Sequence record: MT764208.1
Source: Escherichia phage JEP8
Length of the DNA: 64,000 bases
Strand: one strand, 5' to 3'
Each line of letters opens with the position of its first letter. Positions within the stretch are counted from its first letter, which is position 1. The notes below the pieces were generated by a model that was given only the letters and a program-made list of their open reading frames with translations, made no database searches and was not told the origin of the DNA. Shown here piece after piece: positions 4,731 through 37,109 of this stretch. The position numbers and the translations under genes are program-made.

Positions 4731-4756
4731 AATAACCTCCCATCAATTTTTTAGAG

Positions 4757-4785
4757 AGTATAACGGGGATTTCTCCCCGCGTCAA
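4757..4785 (-). promoter_or_regulatory. PeSL-like early promoter (TTGACG - GGGG..CCCC hairpin spacer - TATACT)
   Basis: Minus strand reads TTGACG cggggagaaatccccgt TATACT; 17-nt spacer forms a hairpin. Confidence 0.55.
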
Positions 4786-5811: not shown

Positions 5812-5855
5812 AGTCTCTTCCTCTCTTCGTTTTCGATGCTCTCACTATATCATAG

Positions 5856-5890
5856 AAAAATAAAAAGGGAAACCCCTTTCGGAGTCTCCC
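5856..5890 (-). terminator. Rho-independent terminator (minus strand)
   Basis: Minus-strand hairpin gggagactcc-GAAA-ggggtttccc followed by TTTTTATTTTT, just after ORF 5902-6189. Confidence 0.55.
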
Positions 5891-5901
5891 TTATAAAGCC
5901 A

Positions 5902-12162: not shown

Positions 12163-12204
12163 ATTTGATTCTCCTGTAAAGTTGTATCTCGTCTTGATGA
12201 ATAT

Positions 12205-12233
12205 AGTATAGGGGATCTCGCGATCCCCGTCAA
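12205..12233 (-). promoter_or_regulatory. PeSL-like early promoter
   Basis: Minus strand TTGACG ggggatcgcgagatcccc TATACT (hairpin spacer). Confidence 0.55.
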
Positions 12234-12237
12234 GAAT

Positions 12238-12765
12238 TTATTTTAAATTTTTTCGAATGTATTCAGACCATTCCTTCCCTGTCATTTCGGACCCGTTCTG
12301 GAAACTGAAATATTCATAAGGCATCGAGTCAAGATAAAACAGGATCATACATCGCGCCATATAATACCAATCACGATTAAAGTAAACTACGTTATCACCA
12401 GTGCCATCAACCCCTTTATCATAACCATCGCGGGTACGGGCTACCCATTGAATAGTATCAGTTTTCTCACGGATAGTAACAGGTTCCCAATATCCAGCAC
12501 ATCCAGCATGACCACACGAACAAGTAAGGAAGTATTGGCCTTTTGCTTTGTTGTCATCCCATTCACGATGGATTGGTTCGACCTCGTGAAACAGTACCAA
12601 ACAATCATGATTATGCAACACTGGCTTACCATCAATCAATGCATGGAATGTATACAAACGACCAGTAGACAAATAGCTATCCTCACGCTCAACCAGTTCA
12701 ATAGCAATCTTTTTAGCTCGTTCTTTGTGTCGTTGTGCTTTACGCTTACGGTTTAATGATTTCAT
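12238..12765 (-). CDS. Hypothetical protein
   Basis: Start moved to MKSLNRKRK (SD GAGGTGAAT); basic N-terminus, Cys/His-rich middle (CSCGHAGCAGYW). Confidence 0.5.
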   Translation of the reverse strand: MKSLNRKRKAQRHKERAKKIAIELVEREDSYLSTGRLYTFHALIDGKPVLHNHDCLVLFHEVEPIHREWDDNKAKGQYFLTCSCGHAGCAGYWEPVTIREKTDTIQWVARTRDGYDKGVDGTGDNVVYFNRDWYYMARCMILFYLDSMPYEYFSFQNGSEMTGKEWSEYIRKNLK

Positions 12766-12782
12766 ATTCACCTCACACATTA

Positions 12783-13325
12783 TCAAAGGTCGCGATATAG
12801 TACATTATGAAAATGAGAACTTGCATTACCAATATTGTAGATAATAAATTCTTCATCCGGCGCTTGCGCTACAAATTGAGTATGAGCAACCGCCACAACC
12901 TTAAAAATACGATCCGTGATCTTGTGTTTAATTTCTGCCCCTACTTCCATAGGAACATATTCATTTGTTTCTGTTTCAGTCGCAAAACAGCCATCTTCTT
13001 CATAAGCACGAACAAATCGGTCGCAATCAGTACGCTTAACAAATTCAAGAGTATATAATTCTCGTGAATTGTCGGTATAGACCAATACAGAATTATTATG
13101 ATAGCGAATCACATACAGGTTATTATCATCGTCAATTACGCAAAAGCTACGGATTCCTTCGCCTTGACTCCAGCAGATATTAACCACCGTTCCTCTAATA
13201 AAAAAACTTTCCTTTAAATTAAAACTAGTCAATGTGCTAGCGTGCATTTTAACAACAACACCATCGCCAATTTCCAGTTTACGAAGTTTAACTTCTTTGC
13301 TCAGTACACAAAACATCATCATCAT
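12783..13325 (-). CDS. Hypothetical protein
   Basis: 180 aa; SD GAGAGGA before ATG. Confidence 0.5.
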   Translation of the reverse strand: MMMMFCVLSKEVKLRKLEIGDGVVVKMHASTLTSFNLKESFFIRGTVVNICWSQGEGIRSFCVIDDDNNLYVIRYHNNSVLVYTDNSRELYTLEFVKRTDCDRFVRAYEEDGCFATETETNEYVPMEVGAEIKHKITDRIFKVVAVAHTQFVAQAPDEEFIIYNIGNASSHFHNVLYRDL

Positions 13326-13354
13326 GTTGTCCTCTCGTTGTTTTCGATGTGAGC

Positions 13355-13382
13355 ATTATACATTAGCTAATCAAGTTGTCAA
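13355..13382 (-). promoter_or_regulatory. Early promoter (TTGACA-16-TATAAT) with conserved leader
   Basis: Minus strand TTGACA acttgattagctaatg TATAAT, then leader CACATCGAAAACAACGAGAGGA. Confidence 0.5.
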
Positions 13383-13392
13383 CACCCCAAAA

Positions 13393-13420
13393 CGAAAAAG
13401 CCGACCCTTTCGGATCGGCT
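13393..13420 (-). terminator. Rho-independent terminator downstream of nrdD
   Basis: Hairpin agccgatccgaaagggtcggct followed by TTTTTCGTTTT on the minus strand. Confidence 0.6.
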
Positions 13421-13425
13421 GAAAA

Positions 13426-15288
13426 TTACATGTGCTTAACGCGGTTTACCATCTCGGAGTGTTTCCCGTGGTTAAATGGACGCAGATCAACAGATCCAAG
13501 ATATCCACTAACGCGACGGATAACATTCATCTTTTCCAGATTGTCATTGCCGCAATCAGGGCAAACAAAACCAGACTCGGTCGCTCTCATTTCCTTATTA
13601 GATCCACATACATGACATACATCAGAAGGAGTATTAACACCGAAGTAGTGCAATTTATCCATTGCATAGTCTACTACAGTTTCAAGACCTTTCAGGTTGT
13701 TTTTCATGTCTGGGAACTCAACATAAGAGATCATGCCACCGGACGCCAGCCAGTGATAATCTTTCTCAAAGTCGATTTTCTCAAATGGTGTGACTTTCCG
13801 GTCTACGTCAAGGTGGAATGAGTTGGTGTACCAGTCTTTATCGGTAGCACCCTTAACAATACCAAATTGCTCTCTGTCCAGTCGATTAAATCGATAGCAA
13901 AGGCTCTCGGCTGGCGTACCGTAAAGACTAAACCCAAGTCCGGTTTCATCCTTCCATTTTTCAGTATAATGACGCAAGATCTTAAGAATATGTTTACCGT
14001 ATCGCTGCGCATCTTCCGAATCAAACGGATGAACACCAAACAGGACGCTCAATACCTCATGTAAACCAATATATCCAAGAGAGATACTAGCGCGACCATC
14101 TTTCAACACTTCCAAAATTTCATCGTTTTGATGAATACGGAAAAATGCACCTTCTGTATACAGCACCGGAGCAACATTGGCTTTAGCGCCTTTTAAAGCG
14201 TCTACGCGACTCATGAGCGCATCAAAGCAAATAGGCATACGATTGGCTAGCTCTTGTTCGAATAGCTCAATTCTGCGCATTACAGACGCTTTACCAGCAC
14301 GACGCGCGGCAATAAGGGCAATACGCGGAAGATTCAGAGTCACAACACCTAAGTTATTACGTCCGTCTAATACTTCTTCTCCTTTCTCATTATGCCACAC
14401 ACCCAGGAAGCTACGACAACCCATCGGGCTAACCGGAACACTAGATCCGGTGATACTACGGTTATTCTTCGCAGAGATATAATCAGGGTAAAGACGCTTA
14501 CTAGAACATTCCAATGCAAGTTGCTTAATGTCGTAGTTCGGATCTTCCGGTTTAAGGTTTAATCCTTCTTCTAAGAACATCACCAGCTTAGGAAACACCG
14601 GAGTGATACCATCTTTACCTAAACCTTTAGTTCGAACGTTCAGGATCGCTTTCTGAATCAGTTTTTCTTCCCAGCTAGTACCCATACCAAAGGTTAAAGT
14701 CACAAAAGGCGTTTGACCGTTGGTGGAGAACAAAGTGTTGATTTCATATTCCAACGCTTGATACCCGTCTAAAGTTTCTTTTTCTGTCTTCTCTTGTGCA
14801 TAGAGAGTATCAGCTTTGATTCCGTAGGTTTCGGCATCAGCAAGGTGTTTATGATATGTTTTCTCAACATACGGTGCTAACACCTGATCGATGTTTGCGA
14901 TTGTGGTCCCTCCATATTGATGACTTGCCACCTGTGCGATAATTTGAGCGGTCACAGCACATGCAACACCGATCGATTTAGGACTTTCGATTTGTGCGCT
15001 ACCCAATTTAAAACCATTCTCTAACATGTCTTTGAGATTAACAAGACAGCAGTTAGTAAACGGCATAGCGGGTGCATAATCCATATCATGATAATGAATA
15101 TCACCGTCTACATGCGCTTTATAGATGTGCTCAGGTAACACGGTTTTAGCAATCTGTTTAGACACAGCACCAGCAATCAGATCTCGACGTGTCGGGAATG
15201 TTCGCGCGTCTTTGTTCGCGTTCTCTTTACTTACTTCGTTTTCTTTACCCGTTGCGATCTCTGTAATGTCTTTGATTAGTTTTTCCAT
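13426..15288 (-). CDS. nrdD: Anaerobic ribonucleoside-triphosphate reductase
   Basis: 620 aa; C-terminal glycyl-radical motif RVSGYLG and Zn-ribbon cysteines (CHVCGS...CPDCG); uninterrupted ORF. Confidence 0.92.
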   Translation of the reverse strand: MEKLIKDITEIATGKENEVSKENANKDARTFPTRRDLIAGAVSKQIAKTVLPEHIYKAHVDGDIHYHDMDYAPAMPFTNCCLVNLKDMLENGFKLGSAQIESPKSIGVACAVTAQIIAQVASHQYGGTTIANIDQVLAPYVEKTYHKHLADAETYGIKADTLYAQEKTEKETLDGYQALEYEINTLFSTNGQTPFVTLTFGMGTSWEEKLIQKAILNVRTKGLGKDGITPVFPKLVMFLEEGLNLKPEDPNYDIKQLALECSSKRLYPDYISAKNNRSITGSSVPVSPMGCRSFLGVWHNEKGEEVLDGRNNLGVVTLNLPRIALIAARRAGKASVMRRIELFEQELANRMPICFDALMSRVDALKGAKANVAPVLYTEGAFFRIHQNDEILEVLKDGRASISLGYIGLHEVLSVLFGVHPFDSEDAQRYGKHILKILRHYTEKWKDETGLGFSLYGTPAESLCYRFNRLDREQFGIVKGATDKDWYTNSFHLDVDRKVTPFEKIDFEKDYHWLASGGMISYVEFPDMKNNLKGLETVVDYAMDKLHYFGVNTPSDVCHVCGSNKEMRATESGFVCPDCGNDNLEKMNVIRRVSGYLGSVDLRPFNHGKHSEMVNRVKHM

Positions 15289-15334
15289 TGTATCACCTAT
15301 GAAAAAGCGGGATTTTCTCCCGCTCGTTGATAGT

Positions 15335-15829
15335 TTATTTTACCAGTTCTGCTAATTCTTTTTCTTTAGCTTCCAGTTCAGCTTTAAGCTGTTTAATCTC
15401 TTGTCGCTTCTTATTAGCGGCTTCCTGCTTACTATTGCGGATAATCTGATCTAGATACAACTCCCAATCCTGAATATTTTTGATAATATAACCGTCAACA
15501 TTAATTGGTCGGATATTTAGTACAGCTTCCAGTTTAGTCGCAAAAACTTTAATTGCTGGTGTGAAGTATTCATATTCGTTATCTTCAAACCAATAACCTA
15601 GACTTGCATTCTCAATACGAAGACGAAGTTCAAGATCAAGGTCTTTATCTTCGGTGTAAAGATCTTGCACATGCCCCATCGAACTAACAACAACTTTAAA
15701 ACGAATTTTATCAACACCACCAAACACATCAGTAAGGATACCAGCAATTGAGCTATTAGCGCAAGATTGGTCGCTGAATGCGTCAAGGTTTTCTTTAGTT
15801 ACAGTATACCAAACATCTTGTACCCACAT
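15335..15829 (-). CDS. Paralogous family member E (divergent)
   Basis: 164 aa; NEYEYFTPAI motif and coiled-coil tail (KQLKAELEAKEKELAELVK); SD GAGAGGA. Confidence 0.5.
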   Translation of the reverse strand: MWVQDVWYTVTKENLDAFSDQSCANSSIAGILTDVFGGVDKIRFKVVVSSMGHVQDLYTEDKDLDLELRLRIENASLGYWFEDNEYEYFTPAIKVFATKLEAVLNIRPINVDGYIIKNIQDWELYLDQIIRNSKQEAANKKRQEIKQLKAELEAKEKELAELVK

Positions 15830-15859
15830 AATATAATCCTCTCGTTGTTAAGTGGGAGT

Positions 15860-15887
15860 ATTATAGCATACTCCCTTCGCATGTCAA
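15860..15887 (-). promoter_or_regulatory. PeSL-like early promoter
   Basis: Minus strand TTGACA ...gggagtatgc TATAAT actccc; hairpin spans the -10. Confidence 0.5.
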
Positions 15888-17062
15888 GCACTAACTTTTT
15901 TCTTTACTGCTTTCACCTTCTGGCGAATTGCTCGAATCTCTTCGATCTCTTTTTCAGTCTCTTTAACAATTTCTTTGCGATTCTGAATATCTGTATCGAG
16001 ATTATCATCAAGTTTAGGCAGCATGTCAATCAAGAACTTTTTAAAGTCTTTCAGGTTTCGGATAACAGCACCTTCACCCATTACCGCCACCCCTACACCA
16101 TCCGGCAGATCACCAAACAGCTTAACCAGTTCAGACAGATGATCATGATCTTCTAGTGCTTCTTCCGGTTCAGATGGCAGTTCAACAAAGTTATAACGTT
16201 CATCATTGCTGATCAAGTGATACCAGCAAAGCCCAAAAGATTTAGGAGTATATTCTACACCATCAACTTCAACCGCGTCAACACTTCCGAAAGAATCTAC
16301 TTTAGTTGCCTTAAATCCGTGTTCCAGCTTTTGAACAATTTCAATAACATGACTGGATACGGTTTCCGTATTAAACCAATGAGGCAAATTATGTGGATTT
16401 GGCTTGTAGCGTTCGCCTACTTTAAATCTCTGACCACGCTCTTGCATACGGACATATTCAACTCGCGTGATTTCCGCGAAGTATTCAAATTCGCCACCGT
16501 CAAACACACAAGCCCATTGATCACAAAAACGATCTGCCTTAACAGTTTCACCTTTCGCGGTGATCATGGTAGCTGATCCGTGCAATTCTTCTTCAACTAA
16601 AAAGCCATATTCGACAAAATCAACAAGTTTCATAGCTTCTTTGTGATCTGGATCATGCTCTCCCCAGAATCGCTTAAATTCTTGCAAACCTTCTGGGGTA
16701 AACGAATAACATTTACCTTTTTCAAAGTAAGTCGGCATTGCATCCTCTTTCTTGTTCATCGCTTCGTATGCCTCTTTTGAGATGCGTTTAAAGTATTTAC
16801 GCTCATTGTGCATAATCATAGTAGCCCAATAATCAACAATATCATTAGCGGAATAAACTACATCTCCAGCTTCAATAGTAATAACATGACCGTGGTCATC
16901 TTTTTCTAATACTTTAAAGCCCTTTTCTACGATTTCAGCAACCCGAATATGACCACGGCGCGAAGCATCGGTCAGAATAATTGAATAGCGAGAAAAGTCT
17001 AGAAACTCATCTTTACCACCTTCACGGAATGCATAGTAATGACCTTCAAAGAATTTAGCCAT
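15884..17062 (-). CDS. Paralogous family member F (multi-module, 392 aa)
   Basis: ERKYFKRI and ERYNFVEL motifs, VDAVEVDGVEY; C-terminal coiled-coil. Confidence 0.6.
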   Translation of the reverse strand: MAKFFEGHYYAFREGGKDEFLDFSRYSIILTDASRRGHIRVAEIVEKGFKVLEKDDHGHVITIEAGDVVYSANDIVDYWATMIMHNERKYFKRISKEAYEAMNKKEDAMPTYFEKGKCYSFTPEGLQEFKRFWGEHDPDHKEAMKLVDFVEYGFLVEEELHGSATMITAKGETVKADRFCDQWACVFDGGEFEYFAEITRVEYVRMQERGQRFKVGERYKPNPHNLPHWFNTETVSSHVIEIVQKLEHGFKATKVDSFGSVDAVEVDGVEYTPKSFGLCWYHLISNDERYNFVELPSEPEEALEDHDHLSELVKLFGDLPDGVGVAVMGEGAVIRNLKDFKKFLIDMLPKLDDNLDTDIQNRKEIVKETEKEIEEIRAIRQKVKAVKKKVSA

Positions 17063-17093
17063 AATATAATCCTCTCGTTGTTTAGATGTGAGT

Positions 17094-17122
17094 ATCTTAC
17101 TACTCCCGTTTCATCATGTCAA
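17094..17122 (-). promoter_or_regulatory. PeSL-like early promoter
   Basis: Minus strand TTGACA tgatgaaacgggagtag TAAGAT actccc. Confidence 0.55.
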
Positions 17123-17685
17123 GCGTTAAATGACTTTTGGATCTCTTTCAGTTCAGCTACTTTATCGGCGCTGAATTTAGCGTAGGTATCATGTCGAATA
17201 ATTTCACTTTCAAGAAAGGTTTCCAGCCGAGATCTATTTTCAATAAGGAACTCTTTCAGGTCTTCCGCGTTCTTGATAAAGATTTTATTGTCAGTAATGT
17301 CATCTTCAATCGCAAAGGAGATAGAGCGAACTTTACCAAACAAGTTAATCAGATCTTCCAGAGATTCTTCTTTCTTAACTGGTTTCATTTCTTCAAACTG
17401 CTTTTTAGTGATGCGTTTAAAGTATTTGCGCTCGCTTGCATCAATCATGATTGACGCACCCTCATAATCATGAGTTTCTACCAAATACACTTTACCCATA
17501 ACATTAACCGTAAGAACTTTAAAGCCCCTGTGAAGCACACCATACAGGAACTTGTTATGTTGTGGATAGCGTTTAACAAATTCCTCTGCGGACTCAGCAT
17601 TACGGAAAGTGTAATAACGACCTCGTTCAAAAACAGCATCATTTGAAGACTTAGCTGGATACAATTTATACGTTTTCTGTACCAT
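17119..17685 (-). CDS. Paralogous family member G
   Basis: Start moved to MVQKTYKLY (SD GAGGA); ERKYFKRI motif; coiled-coil tail. Confidence 0.6.
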   Translation of the reverse strand: MVQKTYKLYPAKSSNDAVFERGRYYTFRNAESAEEFVKRYPQHNKFLYGVLHRGFKVLTVNVMGKVYLVETHDYEGASIMIDASERKYFKRITKKQFEEMKPVKKEESLEDLINLFGKVRSISFAIEDDITDNKIFIKNAEDLKEFLIENRSRLETFLESEIIRHDTYAKFSADKVAELKEIQKSFNA

Positions 17686-18003: not shown

Positions 18004-18032
18004 ATTTTACTACTCCCATTTCTTATTGTCAA
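18004..18032 (-). promoter_or_regulatory. PeSL-like early promoter
   Basis: Minus strand TTGACA ataagaaatgggagtag TAAAAT; lies inside the TTG-extended ORF-track ORF, supporting the shorter CDS. Confidence 0.55.
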
Positions 18033-21904: not shown

Positions 21905-21933
21905 AGTATAGGGGATCACCGATCCCCTGTCAA
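21905..21933 (-). promoter_or_regulatory. PeSL-like early promoter
   Basis: Minus strand TTGACA ggggatcggtgatcccc TATACT; perfect 17-nt hairpin spacer. Confidence 0.6.
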
Positions 21934-24051: not shown

Positions 24052-24831
24052 TTACACGCGAGCACCGTAGATCGTGCCTACTTTATCCCAGCGAGGGGCA
24101 TTGCCAGTAACAGCCTTACCAGCCGCTCCGCCATTATATTCCGATCCCCGTCCACGGATATTACATTTACCACCAGCGCCACCAGCATCACCACCGTTAC
24201 CGCCATTATATACACCGTTGACAGACCCTTTACCTGGCGCGGAAATAGTACCAGCAGTAGCACCCTGTTCCATTTTAGCAGACCCACCAGCAGCGCCAAA
24301 TGGACGACCGCCGCCACCTCCAAAAGTCAATTTCATTTGTGGAAAAGGAGACCAGTATCCTCCGCCACCACCACCACCGCCACCGCAAATAGCGCCGTTA
24401 TTTGTGATGCGTAAGCGTGTGCCTATACCGTTGTTAATTGCATTACCACCAGCACCACCAGCGGAGTTATTGCCACCATTACCACCACGCCCCCAAACAT
24501 GAACACCTGCATTAATGATCAATGTTACATATTCGTTTGTTAACGAGCTAGGGAAGTCAAGACAAGGAACGCCAGTAGATTGGGAAACAATATTACCCGT
24601 GATAGTAATTACTACCGGAGTAGATCCTTGTGCTTTCATCCAGTTAATAAGAGTGTCTTTATTGTAAGAGTTACTAGCACCAATGCTATAATGAATCTCT
24701 TTAGAGCGTCCGACCATTGCCGACATATACGCCGGACGACCTAAGCGTACAGCTTGCATTGCGGCGCTCATCCACCGTTGACCAGTCTCGGACACCGCAG
24801 ATGATCCTACCCATCCAGAAGATATTGCCAT
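24052..24831 (-). CDS. Glycine-rich protein resembling T2/T6-type gp38 tail-fibre adhesin
   Basis: 259 aa; N-terminus MAISSGWVGSSAVSETGQRWMSAAMQAVRLG..., then glycine-rich blocks (GRGGNGGNNSAGGAGGN, GGGGGGGGGYW, GGGGGRPFGAAGG, GGNGGDAGGAGG). Resemblance to gp38 is from memory, not a search. Confidence 0.55.
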   Translation of the reverse strand: MAISSGWVGSSAVSETGQRWMSAAMQAVRLGRPAYMSAMVGRSKEIHYSIGASNSYNKDTLINWMKAQGSTPVVITITGNIVSQSTGVPCLDFPSSLTNEYVTLIINAGVHVWGRGGNGGNNSAGGAGGNAINNGIGTRLRITNNGAICGGGGGGGGGYWSPFPQMKLTFGGGGGRPFGAAGGSAKMEQGATAGTISAPGKGSVNGVYNGGNGGDAGGAGGKCNIRGRGSEYNGGAAGKAVTGNAPRWDKVGTIYGARV

Positions 24832-24845
24832 AAAATTTCCTCACA

Positions 24846-24868
24846 AGAAAAGCCCCAATTAAGGGGCA
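24846..24868 (-). terminator. Rho-independent terminator (minus strand)
   Basis: Hairpin gccccttaattggggc followed by TTTTCTTGT, directly upstream of the gp38-like gene. Confidence 0.5.
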
Positions 24869-24885
24869 TTGATTGATAATATTAC

Positions 24886-33341: not shown

Positions 33342-33403
33342 GGTAAAGTCTCCAGTGAACGGGGAGAGATCCTTAGATTGTCTCCCCGTTGATGGTTAAT
33401 ATT

Positions 33404-36387: not shown

Positions 36388-36416
36388 ATTATGCTATACA
36401 CCCTCTCGTGTGTCAA
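36388..36416 (-). promoter_or_regulatory. PeSL-like early promoter
   Basis: Minus strand TTGACA cacgagagggtgtatag CATAAT; gggtgta..tacaccc hairpin spans the -10. Confidence 0.5.
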
Positions 36417-36424
36417 CAACTTTT

Positions 36425-37080: not shown

Positions 37081-37109
37081 ATTGTAGGGGAGTTATCCTC
37101 CCCTGTCAA
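37081..37109 (-). promoter_or_regulatory. PeSL-like early promoter
   Basis: Minus strand TTGACA ggggaggataactcccc TACAAT; perfect hairpin spacer. Confidence 0.55.

What the first reader, a model, noticed from the sequence alone, without database searches (positions are those of the whole stretch)
15289..15334. Terminator-like hairpin immediately upstream of the nrdD ribosome-binding site
Minus-strand hairpin agcgggagaaaatcccgct plus a T-run ends about 15 nt before the nrdD ATG, with no recognisable promoter between. This could attenuate or otherwise regulate nrdD expression.
Basis: seen in the sequence. Interest (0 to 1): 0.35.

Follow-up and report, generated by a model that had tools for sequence, protein, structure and literature searches.

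The report
Weak terminator hairpin before phage nrdD
This is a real but ordinary stem-loop with a short T-run between a small unknown gene and the anaerobic ribonucleotide reductase gene of an RB49-like coliphage, and it was already predicted and annotated as a terminator in published relatives.

Summary
On the minus strand, AGCGGGA-GAAAA-TCCCGCT (15324..15306) is followed by a T-run ending at 15302. The T-run lies 13 nt before the nrdD ATG (15288), with the ribosome-binding site AGGTGAT between them and no room for a promoter. The hairpin is far beyond chance and forms with probability about 1 in every sequence context tested.

The window is a Krischvirus (RB49-like T4-type phage). All 58 related phage records carry the element with an invariant stem. 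Nolan et al. 2006 predicted it as a rho-independent terminator in RB49 ("nrdD<--RB49ORF057c", confidence 98). Several GenBank records annotate it as "terminator".

It scores as the weakest of the T-tailed hairpins in the window, and it starts only 10 nt after the orf057 stop codon. nrdD has no consensus promoter of its own, so it must be transcribed by read-through from the early promoter at 15887..15860.

The best reading is a leaky intrinsic terminator, which may also protect the 3' end of the orf057 mRNA. It would lower nrdD transcription relative to orf057. I found no sign of a switchable attenuator: no leader peptide, no alternative fold and no Rfam family. No termination has been measured at this site. 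Interest is low.

The parts
15860..15887 (-). Early sigma-70 promoter, TTGACA-16-TATAAT preceded by TG. It is the nearest consensus promoter upstream of nrdD and drives orf057.
   Evidence: scores it 12/12. One search shows it aligns with the other early promoters of the window. It is annotated as a promoter in GEC-3S.
15335..15829 (-). orf057, 164 aa, function unknown. Its stop codon TAA is at 15337..15335.
   Evidence: There is no Pfam family. It matches phrog_15067, unknown function. It corresponds to RB49p057.
15337..15345 (-). Extended -10-like motif TGGTAAAAT inside the end of orf057. It is a candidate only, with no -35 element.
   Evidence: 30 such motifs in the window against 11.3 expected; the combined -10 plus ATC motif is not significantly enriched (18 against 11.4).
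15306..15324 (-). Stem-loop AGCGGGA-GAAAA-TCCCGCT. The 5' arm is 15324..15318, the loop 15317..15313 and the 3' arm 15312..15306.
   Evidence: The stem is invariant in all related records examined.
15302..15306 (-). T-run (U-tract) of five T, the first shared with the stem, followed by CATAGG.
   Evidence: Tail score 3.36 and d-score 4.7, against 15-37 for the other T-tailed hairpins.
15292..15298 (-). nrdD ribosome-binding site AGGTGAT.
   Evidence: Ec_Makalu_002 annotates a ribosome_binding_site at this position.
13426..15288 (-). nrdD, the class III anaerobic ribonucleotide reductase large subunit, 620 aa.
   Evidence: Pfam NRDD 2.6e-175 and Gly_radical 5.2e-23. Annotated as nrdD in the relatives.
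13399..13420 (-). Strong terminator after nrdD: a 9-bp stem, GAAA loop and tail TTTTCGTTTT. It ends the orf057-nrdD unit.
   Evidence: (d = 23.2). Predicted in RB49 with TransTerm confidence 100.
13355..13382 (-). The next early promoter, TTGACA-16-TATAAT. Together with the preceding terminator it forms a promoter-early stem-loop (PeSL)-type cassette.
   Evidence: scores it 12/12. The PeSL definition is from PMC2839356.

Best explanation
The element is a weak (leaky) rho-independent terminator in the 46-nt gap between orf057 and nrdD of an RB49-like phage.

Host RNA polymerase starts at the early promoter at 15887..15860, and probably also at the upstream promoters at 17122 and 18032. It transcribes orf057 and then meets a very stable 7-8 bp G+C-rich hairpin followed by only five U. 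Some transcripts should end there, giving an orf057 mRNA whose 3' end is protected by the hairpin. The rest read through and are the only source of nrdD mRNA until the strong terminator at 13420..13399.

The net effect is a fixed step-down of nrdD transcription relative to the upstream small gene. It also limits the transcription that accumulates from several strong promoters.

Read-through is probably helped by the position of the stem, only 10 nt after the orf057 stop codon (9 nt in most relatives). A ribosome finishing orf057 can hinder hairpin folding at that distance.

Shown here: the anatomy, the stability of the hairpin, its conservation, the absence of a consensus promoter for nrdD, and its weak score relative to neighbouring terminators. 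Inferred: that termination actually occurs, its efficiency, and the ribosome effect.
For: - Hairpin plus T-run anatomy, with fold z-scores of -3.9 and -4.3.
- The stem forms with probability about 1 in all contexts tested.
- Such hairpins with an adjacent TTTT number 6 in the window against 0.07 in shuffles. All lie at gene ends or in gaps of the crude gene map.
- TransTerm predicted the same element in RB49 at 36406..36422 with confidence 98 (PMC1524935 Additional file 6).
- It is annotated as 'terminator' in GEC-3S, TB34, the Makalu phages and the vB_EcoM_G phages.
- All 58 Krischvirus records carry it. The stem is identical in every sequence read, and the identity values of the other records fit only the loop-length variant.
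- No promoter scoring 9/12 or better lies between 15860 and the nrdD ATG, and there is no late promoter TATAAATA nearby. RB49 has no MotA middle mode (PMC1524935). nrdD therefore needs read-through.
- The d'Aubenton-type score is 4.7 here, against 15-37 for the other T-tailed hairpins in the window.
- Stem-loops of RB49/phi1 early-promoter cassettes act as terminators or attenuators in a lacZ assay and were proposed to limit accumulated transcription (PMC2839356).
- A T4 precedent exists: a weak terminator with a short poly(U) in the nrdA-mobE-nrdB region stops about 30% of transcripts (PMC2988022).
- Terminators closer than about 27 nt to a stop codon are repressed by the translating ribosome (PMC4824070).
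Against: - No transcript 3' or 5' ends are available for this or any Krischvirus; I found no transcriptome paper.
- The U-tract is short, so termination could be negligible.
- The simple scan did not list the element, and the d-score turns negative (-6.5) if the G.U pair is counted in the stem.
- Stem invariance among genomes that are 94-99% identical gives no covariation support.
- The strong terminator after nrdD sits even closer to its stop codon (5 nt). The ribosome-proximity argument therefore does not single out this site.
Confidence: 0.6

Rival explanations
1. The hairpin is mainly an RNA-stability element and not a terminator. RNA polymerase reads through almost fully. The intercistronic hairpin then blocks 3'-to-5' exonucleases after endonucleolytic cleavage in the AU-rich stretch UUUUUCAUAGG. 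orf057 mRNA therefore outlives nrdD mRNA.
For: The stem is very stable and independent of context. The U-tract is short and the terminator score marginal. In T4-type phages mRNA decay by RNase E and RegB shapes early expression (PMC3014915).
Against: Five consecutive U directly after a G+C-rich stem is the core terminator signal, and TransTerm gives confidence 98. No cleavage site can be predicted reliably. This reading and termination are not mutually exclusive.
Confidence: 0.2
2. The hairpin is the 5'-proximal stem-loop of a separate nrdD transcript. This transcript would start at a weak extended -10 promoter (TGGTAAAAT, 15345..15337) near the ATCAACG at 15331. The hairpin would then stabilise the nrdD mRNA 5' end while also stopping upstream transcripts.
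For: TGnTAWAAT motifs are enriched in the window, 30 against 11.3 expected. The downstream ATCAACGAG resembles the conserved start region ATCGAAAC/ATCAACGA of the early promoters, for example the one at 37109. One promoter in the window (gap 5901..5812) seems to work with an extended -10 and no -35.
Against: There is no -35 element (2/6). The spacing from -10 to ATC is 4-5 nt instead of 6. The combined motif is not significantly enriched, 18 against 11.4 expected, and ATCAACGA occurs 3 times against 3.25 expected. The motif lies in coding sequence (Leu-Val-Lys-stop). A terminator 7-30 nt after a start site would also abort its own transcript.
Confidence: 0.07
3. The hairpin is a solo or decayed stem-loop from a promoter-early stem-loop (PeSL) recombination cassette. 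It would be a leftover of modular shuffling that placed orf057 next to nrdD, with little present function in expression.
For: The stem has the RB49-type G-run/C-run form. It resembles the spacer hairpin GCGGGGAGAAATCCCCGT of the intact cassette at 4785..4752, and it is flanked by TCAACG and TTTCAT where that cassette has TTGACG and TATACT. Arbiol et al. name nrdD as a gene associated with these cassettes. Other T4-like genera have no hairpin here, and nrdD overlaps the upstream stop codon.
Against: The promoter-like hexamers match only 4/6 each with a 19-20 nt spacer. The resemblance rests on a short G/C hairpin with a GAAA loop (4 matches at up to 3 mismatches against 1.3 expected). The element is kept unchanged in 58 genomes while nearby synonymous sites vary. 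The one mosaic allele found (L159) has its junctions inside orf057 and not at the hairpin.
Confidence: 0.08
4. The hairpin is a translational or RNase control element. It, or the U-run pairing with GGAAAA after the AUG, would modulate ribosome access to nrdD. Alternatively, the GGAG in the 5' arm would be a RegB cleavage site.
For: The minimum-free-energy fold of the 91-nt context pairs UUUUCA with UGGAAA around the start codon. GGAG followed by A-rich sequence is present, and RB49 has a divergent regB.
Against: Accessibility of the ribosome-binding site and AUG changes with each window length, so no robust structure exists. The GGA of GGAG is paired in a stem with probability about 1, and secondary structure protects against RegB. 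Only 7 of 11 positions of GGAGRAYARAA match.
Confidence: 0.03

Closest known systems
The same element in phage RB49 and other Krischvirus genomes: TransTerm prediction 'nrdD<--RB49ORF057c' (Nolan et al. 2006) and GenBank 'terminator' features in GEC-3S, TB34, Ec_Makalu_001-003 and the vB_EcoM_G phages
   Same: The sequence is orthologous and identical apart from loop length (GAAA or GAAAA) and one A after the stop codon. Position and flanking genes are the same.
   Different: Nothing of substance. Those entries are computational predictions too, so the function is equally untested there.
Weak intrinsic terminators inside T4 prereplicative transcription units, for example the mobE terminator between nrdA and nrdB (about 30% termination)
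   Same: A G+C-rich hairpin with a short poly(U), placed inside a polycistronic unit for a ribonucleotide reductase. It is proposed to tune downstream transcript levels (PMC2988022).
   Different: The T4 case lies inside a coding region and is followed by a middle promoter that rescues nrdB. Here the hairpin is intergenic and no promoter follows, so read-through is obligatory. The two are not homologous.
Stem-loops of promoter-early stem-loop (PeSL) cassettes of RB49 and phi1 (Arbiol et al. 2010)
   Same: The hairpin has the same G-run/C-run style, the same intergenic placement just before a ribosome-binding site, and the same phage group. One such stem-loop was shown to terminate in a lacZ assay.
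   Different: The defining early promoter is missing, so this is a stand-alone stem-loop. Unlike most hairpins that sit in the promoter spacer of these cassettes, it has a T-run.
Intercistronic hairpins that give differential mRNA stability within operons, such as REP in malE-malF or the puf operon (from general knowledge, not tested here)
   Same: A stable hairpin between two cistrons that would favour the upstream one.
   Different: Those act after transcription and lack a U-tract. Here a U-tract is present.

Membership tests
Rho-independent (intrinsic) terminator | G+C-rich stem-loop on the transcribed strand | tested here: met
   The stem has 7 Watson-Crick pairs, 5 of them G-C. The energy is -11.9 to -13.8 kcal/mol and pair probability is about 1.
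Rho-independent (intrinsic) terminator | U-rich tract immediately 3' of the stem | tested here: inconclusive
   Five U including the stem-closing one, then CAUAGG. The d-score is 4.7, or -6.5 with the G.U pair counted, against 15-37 for neighbouring terminators. The element is missed by the scan but TransTerm gives it confidence 98.
Rho-independent (intrinsic) terminator | Location downstream of a gene, in the sense orientation | tested here: met
   The stem starts 10 nt after the orf057 stop codon on the coding strand. On the plus strand no T-run follows it.
Rho-independent (intrinsic) terminator | Transcript 3' ends at the U-tract that depend on the hairpin | not testable with these tools
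   No transcript data are available, and no Krischvirus transcriptome paper was found.
PeSL (promoter-early stem-loop) cassette | Near-consensus sigma-70 early promoter joined to the stem-loop | tested here: not met
   No promoter scoring 9/12 or better lies in or around the gap. The flanking TCAACG and TTTCAT match 4/6 each, with a 19-20 nt spacer and no A at -10 position 2 (comparison).
PeSL (promoter-early stem-loop) cassette | Stem-loop of G-run ... C-run type in an intergenic space ending with a ribosome-binding site and ATG | tested here: met
   The sequence is GGGA-GAAAA-TCCC, followed by AGGTGAT and ATG.
Leader-peptide or switchable transcription attenuator | Short leader ORF and mutually exclusive terminator and antiterminator folds | tested here: not met
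   The 46-nt gap has no ORF. The terminator stem keeps a probability of 0.85-1.0 in seven contexts of 82-501 nt.
Known structured RNA family (riboswitch, leader, sRNA) | Match to an Rfam covariance model | tested here: not met
   cmscan of 12500..17500 at E up to 10 gives only two chance-level hits, both elsewhere.
RegB/S1 cleavage site | Unpaired GGAG within GGAGRAYARAA | tested here: not met
   GGAG is present at 15320..15317, but GGA is paired in the stem. Only 7 of 11 consensus positions match; the consensus is.

The most novel reading that the evidence does not exclude
The hairpin may be a translation-gated attenuator. Because the stem starts only 9-10 nt after the orf057 stop codon, it would terminate efficiently only when no ribosome closely follows RNA polymerase. 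nrdD transcription would then depend on active translation of orf057. That would give a phage without MotA middle promoters a built-in delayed-early timer for nrdD.
Probability: 0.12. Interest if true: 0.35.

Novelty: already known. Interest (0 to 1): 0.1.

Why it matters
It matters little beyond annotation. The architecture makes orf057 and nrdD a two-gene early unit: promoter at 15887, orf057, weak hairpin, nrdD, strong terminator at 13420. It suggests how an RB49-like phage keeps the anaerobic reductase below the level of the promoter-proximal small gene. If read-through proved to depend on translation of orf057, this would be a simple, testable example of how T4-type phages without MotA delay some early genes. 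That idea is an inference only.

Tried and rejected
- **Covariation:** All 58 phage records and two metagenome loci carry the element, and the 13 sequences actually read have an identical stem. The only changes are loop GAAA/GAAAA, one A after the stop codon, one T>C upstream (Sf20) and one C>A after the T-run (kvi, W115, GoldenSnicker). No test of pairing is therefore possible.
- **Metagenome scan:** The scan with a back-translated MEKLIKDI pattern was too degenerate.
- **Exact-pattern scan of viral contigs and orf057 protein scan:** These found only 2-3 Krischvirus contigs.
- **More distant T4-like phages:** They have no hairpin here, and nrdD overlaps the upstream stop codon, so there is no deeper homologue.
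- **Rfam:** No match.
- **Late promoter TATAAATA:** None nearby.
- **Hidden promoter (extended -10 plus ATCAACGA):** The motif statistics are at chance level.
- **FNR site:** Checked by eye in the sequence. Only an ATCAA half-site is present, with no partner.
- **Ribosome-binding-site or AUG masking:** Not robust across contexts.
- **RegB site:** GGA is paired, so this was rejected.
- **Papers not held:** Desplats 2002 (RB49 transcript mapping) and Miller 2003 (T4 genome).
- **Transcriptome data:** No Krischvirus transcriptome paper was found.

Full report
**What is there.**
The minus strand between 15337 and 15286 reads TAA-ACTATCAACG-AGCGGGA-GAAAA-TCCCGCT-TTTTC-AT-AGGTGAT-ACA-ATG.
- The TAA at 15337..15335 ends a 164-aa ORF, orf057.
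- The ATG at 15288 starts a 620-aa protein. It is an anaerobic class III ribonucleotide reductase large subunit (Pfam NRDD E = 2.6e-175, Gly_radical 5.2e-23).
- The stem is 15324..15318 paired with 15312..15306, with 7 Watson-Crick pairs of which 5 are G-C. The loop is GAAAA.
- Five T (15306..15302) follow, the first being part of the stem.
- The T-run ends 13 nt before the ATG, and the ribosome-binding site AGGTGAT (15298..15292) lies between.

**Is it more than chance?**
- The 91-nt context folds at -19.9 kcal/mol with z = -3.9.
- The 34-nt core folds at -13.8 kcal/mol with z = -4.3, and no shuffle does as well.
- Hairpins with at least 7 Watson-Crick pairs, at least 5 G-C and an adjacent TTTT occur 6 times in the window. 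Dinucleotide-preserving shuffles give 0.07 each.
- The stem pairs have probability 0.85-1.0 in seven contexts from 82 to 501 nt. The hairpin is therefore constitutive and has no competing fold.
- One caveat: the simple terminator scan did not list it. If the stem is extended by the A-U and G.U pairs, only 4 of the next 8 bases are T.

**Where the window comes from.**
The region is 94-99% identical to 58 phage records of the genus Krischvirus, including RB49, phi1, GEC-3S and JSE. The gene order matches RB49p059, frd.2, RB49p057, nrdD.

**Already described.**
- Nolan et al. 2006 list a TransTerm terminator in RB49 at 36406..36422, minus strand, confidence 98, labelled "nrdD<--RB49ORF057c" (PMC1524935, Additional file 6). 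This is the same element.
- GenBank records of GEC-3S, TB34, Ec_Makalu_001 to 003 and several vB_EcoM_G phages annotate it as "terminator".

**Conservation.**
- All 58 records carry the element.
- In 35 there is a single difference. In the sequences actually read, that difference is always a loop of GAAA instead of GAAAA.
- In four there is also one substitution, always outside the stem: T>C upstream in Sf20, and C>A just after the T-run in kvi, W115 and GoldenSnicker.
- The two loop forms are equally stable, at -13.8 and -13.9 kcal/mol.
- Because the stem never varies, there is no covariation evidence for or against pairing. At this low divergence the invariance itself is weak evidence.
- In other T4-like genera the nrdD start overlaps the stop of the upstream gene (TTTAAAATG) and there is no hairpin. 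The element is specific to the RB49 group.

**Transcriptional context.**
- A perfect sigma-70 promoter with a TG extension sits at 15887..15860, in front of orf057.
- No promoter scoring 9/12 or better lies between it and the nrdD ATG.
- There is no late promoter TATAAATA within many kilobases.
- RB49 has no MotA or middle-promoter system (PMC1524935).
- After nrdD comes a strong terminator (13420..13399: 9 bp, GAAA loop, tail TTTTCGTTTT), followed at once by another perfect promoter (13382..13355). That is the promoter-early stem-loop (PeSL) arrangement described for RB49 and phi1 (PMC2839356).
- nrdD therefore has to be transcribed by read-through of the hairpin in question.
- Upstream promoters at 18032 and 17122 are not followed by any T-tailed hairpin before 15324. 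This hairpin is thus the first terminator-like signal met by transcription accumulated from several strong promoters.

**How strong is it?**
I applied a d'Aubenton-Carafa-type score with modern energy parameters, so it is valid for ranking only. The element scores 4.7, or -6.5 if the G.U pair is counted in the stem. Best-delimited T-tailed hairpins elsewhere in the window score 15-37, and the terminator after nrdD scores 23.2. It is the weakest of its class here.

In addition, the stem starts 10 nt after the stop codon, or 9 nt in most relatives. Li et al. showed in E. coli that terminators closer than about 27 nt to a stop codon are partly or fully repressed by the translating ribosome (PMC4824070). 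That would favour read-through. However, the strong terminator after nrdD is only 5 nt from its stop codon, so the argument is not specific to this site.

**Best explanation (confidence about 0.6).**
The element is a leaky intrinsic terminator that ends part of the transcripts after orf057. Its hairpin then protects that 3' end. The remainder continue into nrdD, which gives a fixed step-down in nrdD transcription.

This matches the role Arbiol et al. proposed for RB49 stem-loops, which was to attenuate transcription accumulating from upstream promoters. They showed that one such stem-loop terminates in a lacZ assay.

It also parallels a T4 case. A weak terminator with a short poly(U) in the nrdA-mobE-nrdB region stops about 30% of transcripts and is thought to tune nrdB levels (PMC2988022). 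T4-type phages are known to express many genes by extension of early transcripts (PMC2988021).

The anatomy and context are shown here. Termination itself, its efficiency and the ribosome effect are inferred.

**Rivals.**
- (a) A pure RNA-stability barrier with little termination (about 0.2). This is compatible with the short U-tract and is not exclusive of termination.
- (b) A 5' stem-loop of an nrdD transcript started at an extended -10 motif, TGGTAAAAT (15345..15337), followed by ATCAACGAG. That sequence resembles the start region of the window's early promoters. However, there is no -35, the spacing is off, and the motif statistics are at chance level. About 0.07.
- (c) A solo or decayed stem-loop of a PeSL cassette. 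The hairpin resembles the spacer hairpin of the intact cassette at 4785..4752 and is flanked by weak look-alikes of its -35 and -10. The similarity is short, though, and the element is kept intact in all relatives. About 0.08.
- (d) Translational masking or a RegB site. Ribosome-binding-site and AUG accessibility is inconsistent across contexts. The GGA of the GGAG is locked in the stem, and structure protects against RegB. About 0.03.

**No sign of a regulated switch.**
There is no Rfam family, no leader ORF and no alternative structure.

**Verdict.**
This is a real, conserved, terminator-like hairpin. It is ordinary for this phage group and already predicted and annotated in the literature and databases. 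Interest is low (0.1).

Noticed in passing
window minus strand, just upstream of start codons at 12165, 17975, 21864, 23953, 25110, 26363, 37307, 38866 and 39312: Many small early ORFs driven by PeSL cassettes share the ribosome-binding site AGGAGAATCAAA(A)ATG. GGAGAATCAA occurs 16 times, allowing one mismatch, against 5.1 expected. It fits the T4 RegB/S1 target consensus GGAGRAYARAA in 10 of 11 positions. The ribosome-binding sites of nrdD (AGGTGATACA) and orf057/orf058 (GAGAGGATTATATT) do not fit it. This suggests selective RegB targeting of the small early ORFs.
   Followed up: partly
window 24852..24867 (minus), gap 24885..24832: A second case of the same architecture. The hairpin GCCCCTTAATTGGGGC plus TTTTCTTG lies directly before the ribosome-binding site of a gp38-like tail-fibre adhesin gene (24831..24052; phrog_2056, E = 4.9e-102), with no promoter between. 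Nolan 2006 lists the same site in RB49 as a predicted terminator, '38<--RB49ORF080c'.
   Followed up: partly
L159 (metagenome contig) against window 15484..15810: A divergent allele of orf057. Identity is 50-70% across the central 330 nt but 93-100% on both sides, including the hairpin and nrdD. The mosaic junctions lie inside the coding sequence and not at the hairpin or the promoter cassette.
   Followed up: partly
window 33342..33403 (minus): A 10-bp hairpin, CGGGGAGA...TCTCTCCCCG, preceded by ATCAACG. It has no T-run and no promoter, and it lies directly before a 161-aa ORF. Its function is unknown.
   Followed up: no
window 5812..5901 (minus): A strong terminator (5892..5865) is followed by what looks like an extended -10 promoter without a -35 (TGATATAGT), then the usual ATCGAAAAC start region.
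   Followed up: no
L026 (IMGVR_UViG_3300033120_000502), about 25-55 nt upstream of its nrdD ATG: An unrelated phage contig with a 60%-identical NrdD also has a hairpin plus T-run (AGAGGG-TTTATT-CCCTCT, then TTTATTATCTTT) directly before the nrdD ribosome-binding site. This is a single case and may be coincidence.
   Followed up: no
window 4752..4785, 12205..12233 and 21905..21933 (minus): These are intact PeSL cassettes in which a G-run/C-run hairpin fills the spacer between the -35 and -10 elements. An example is TTGACG-CGGGGAGAAATCCCCGT-TATACT.
   Followed up: partly
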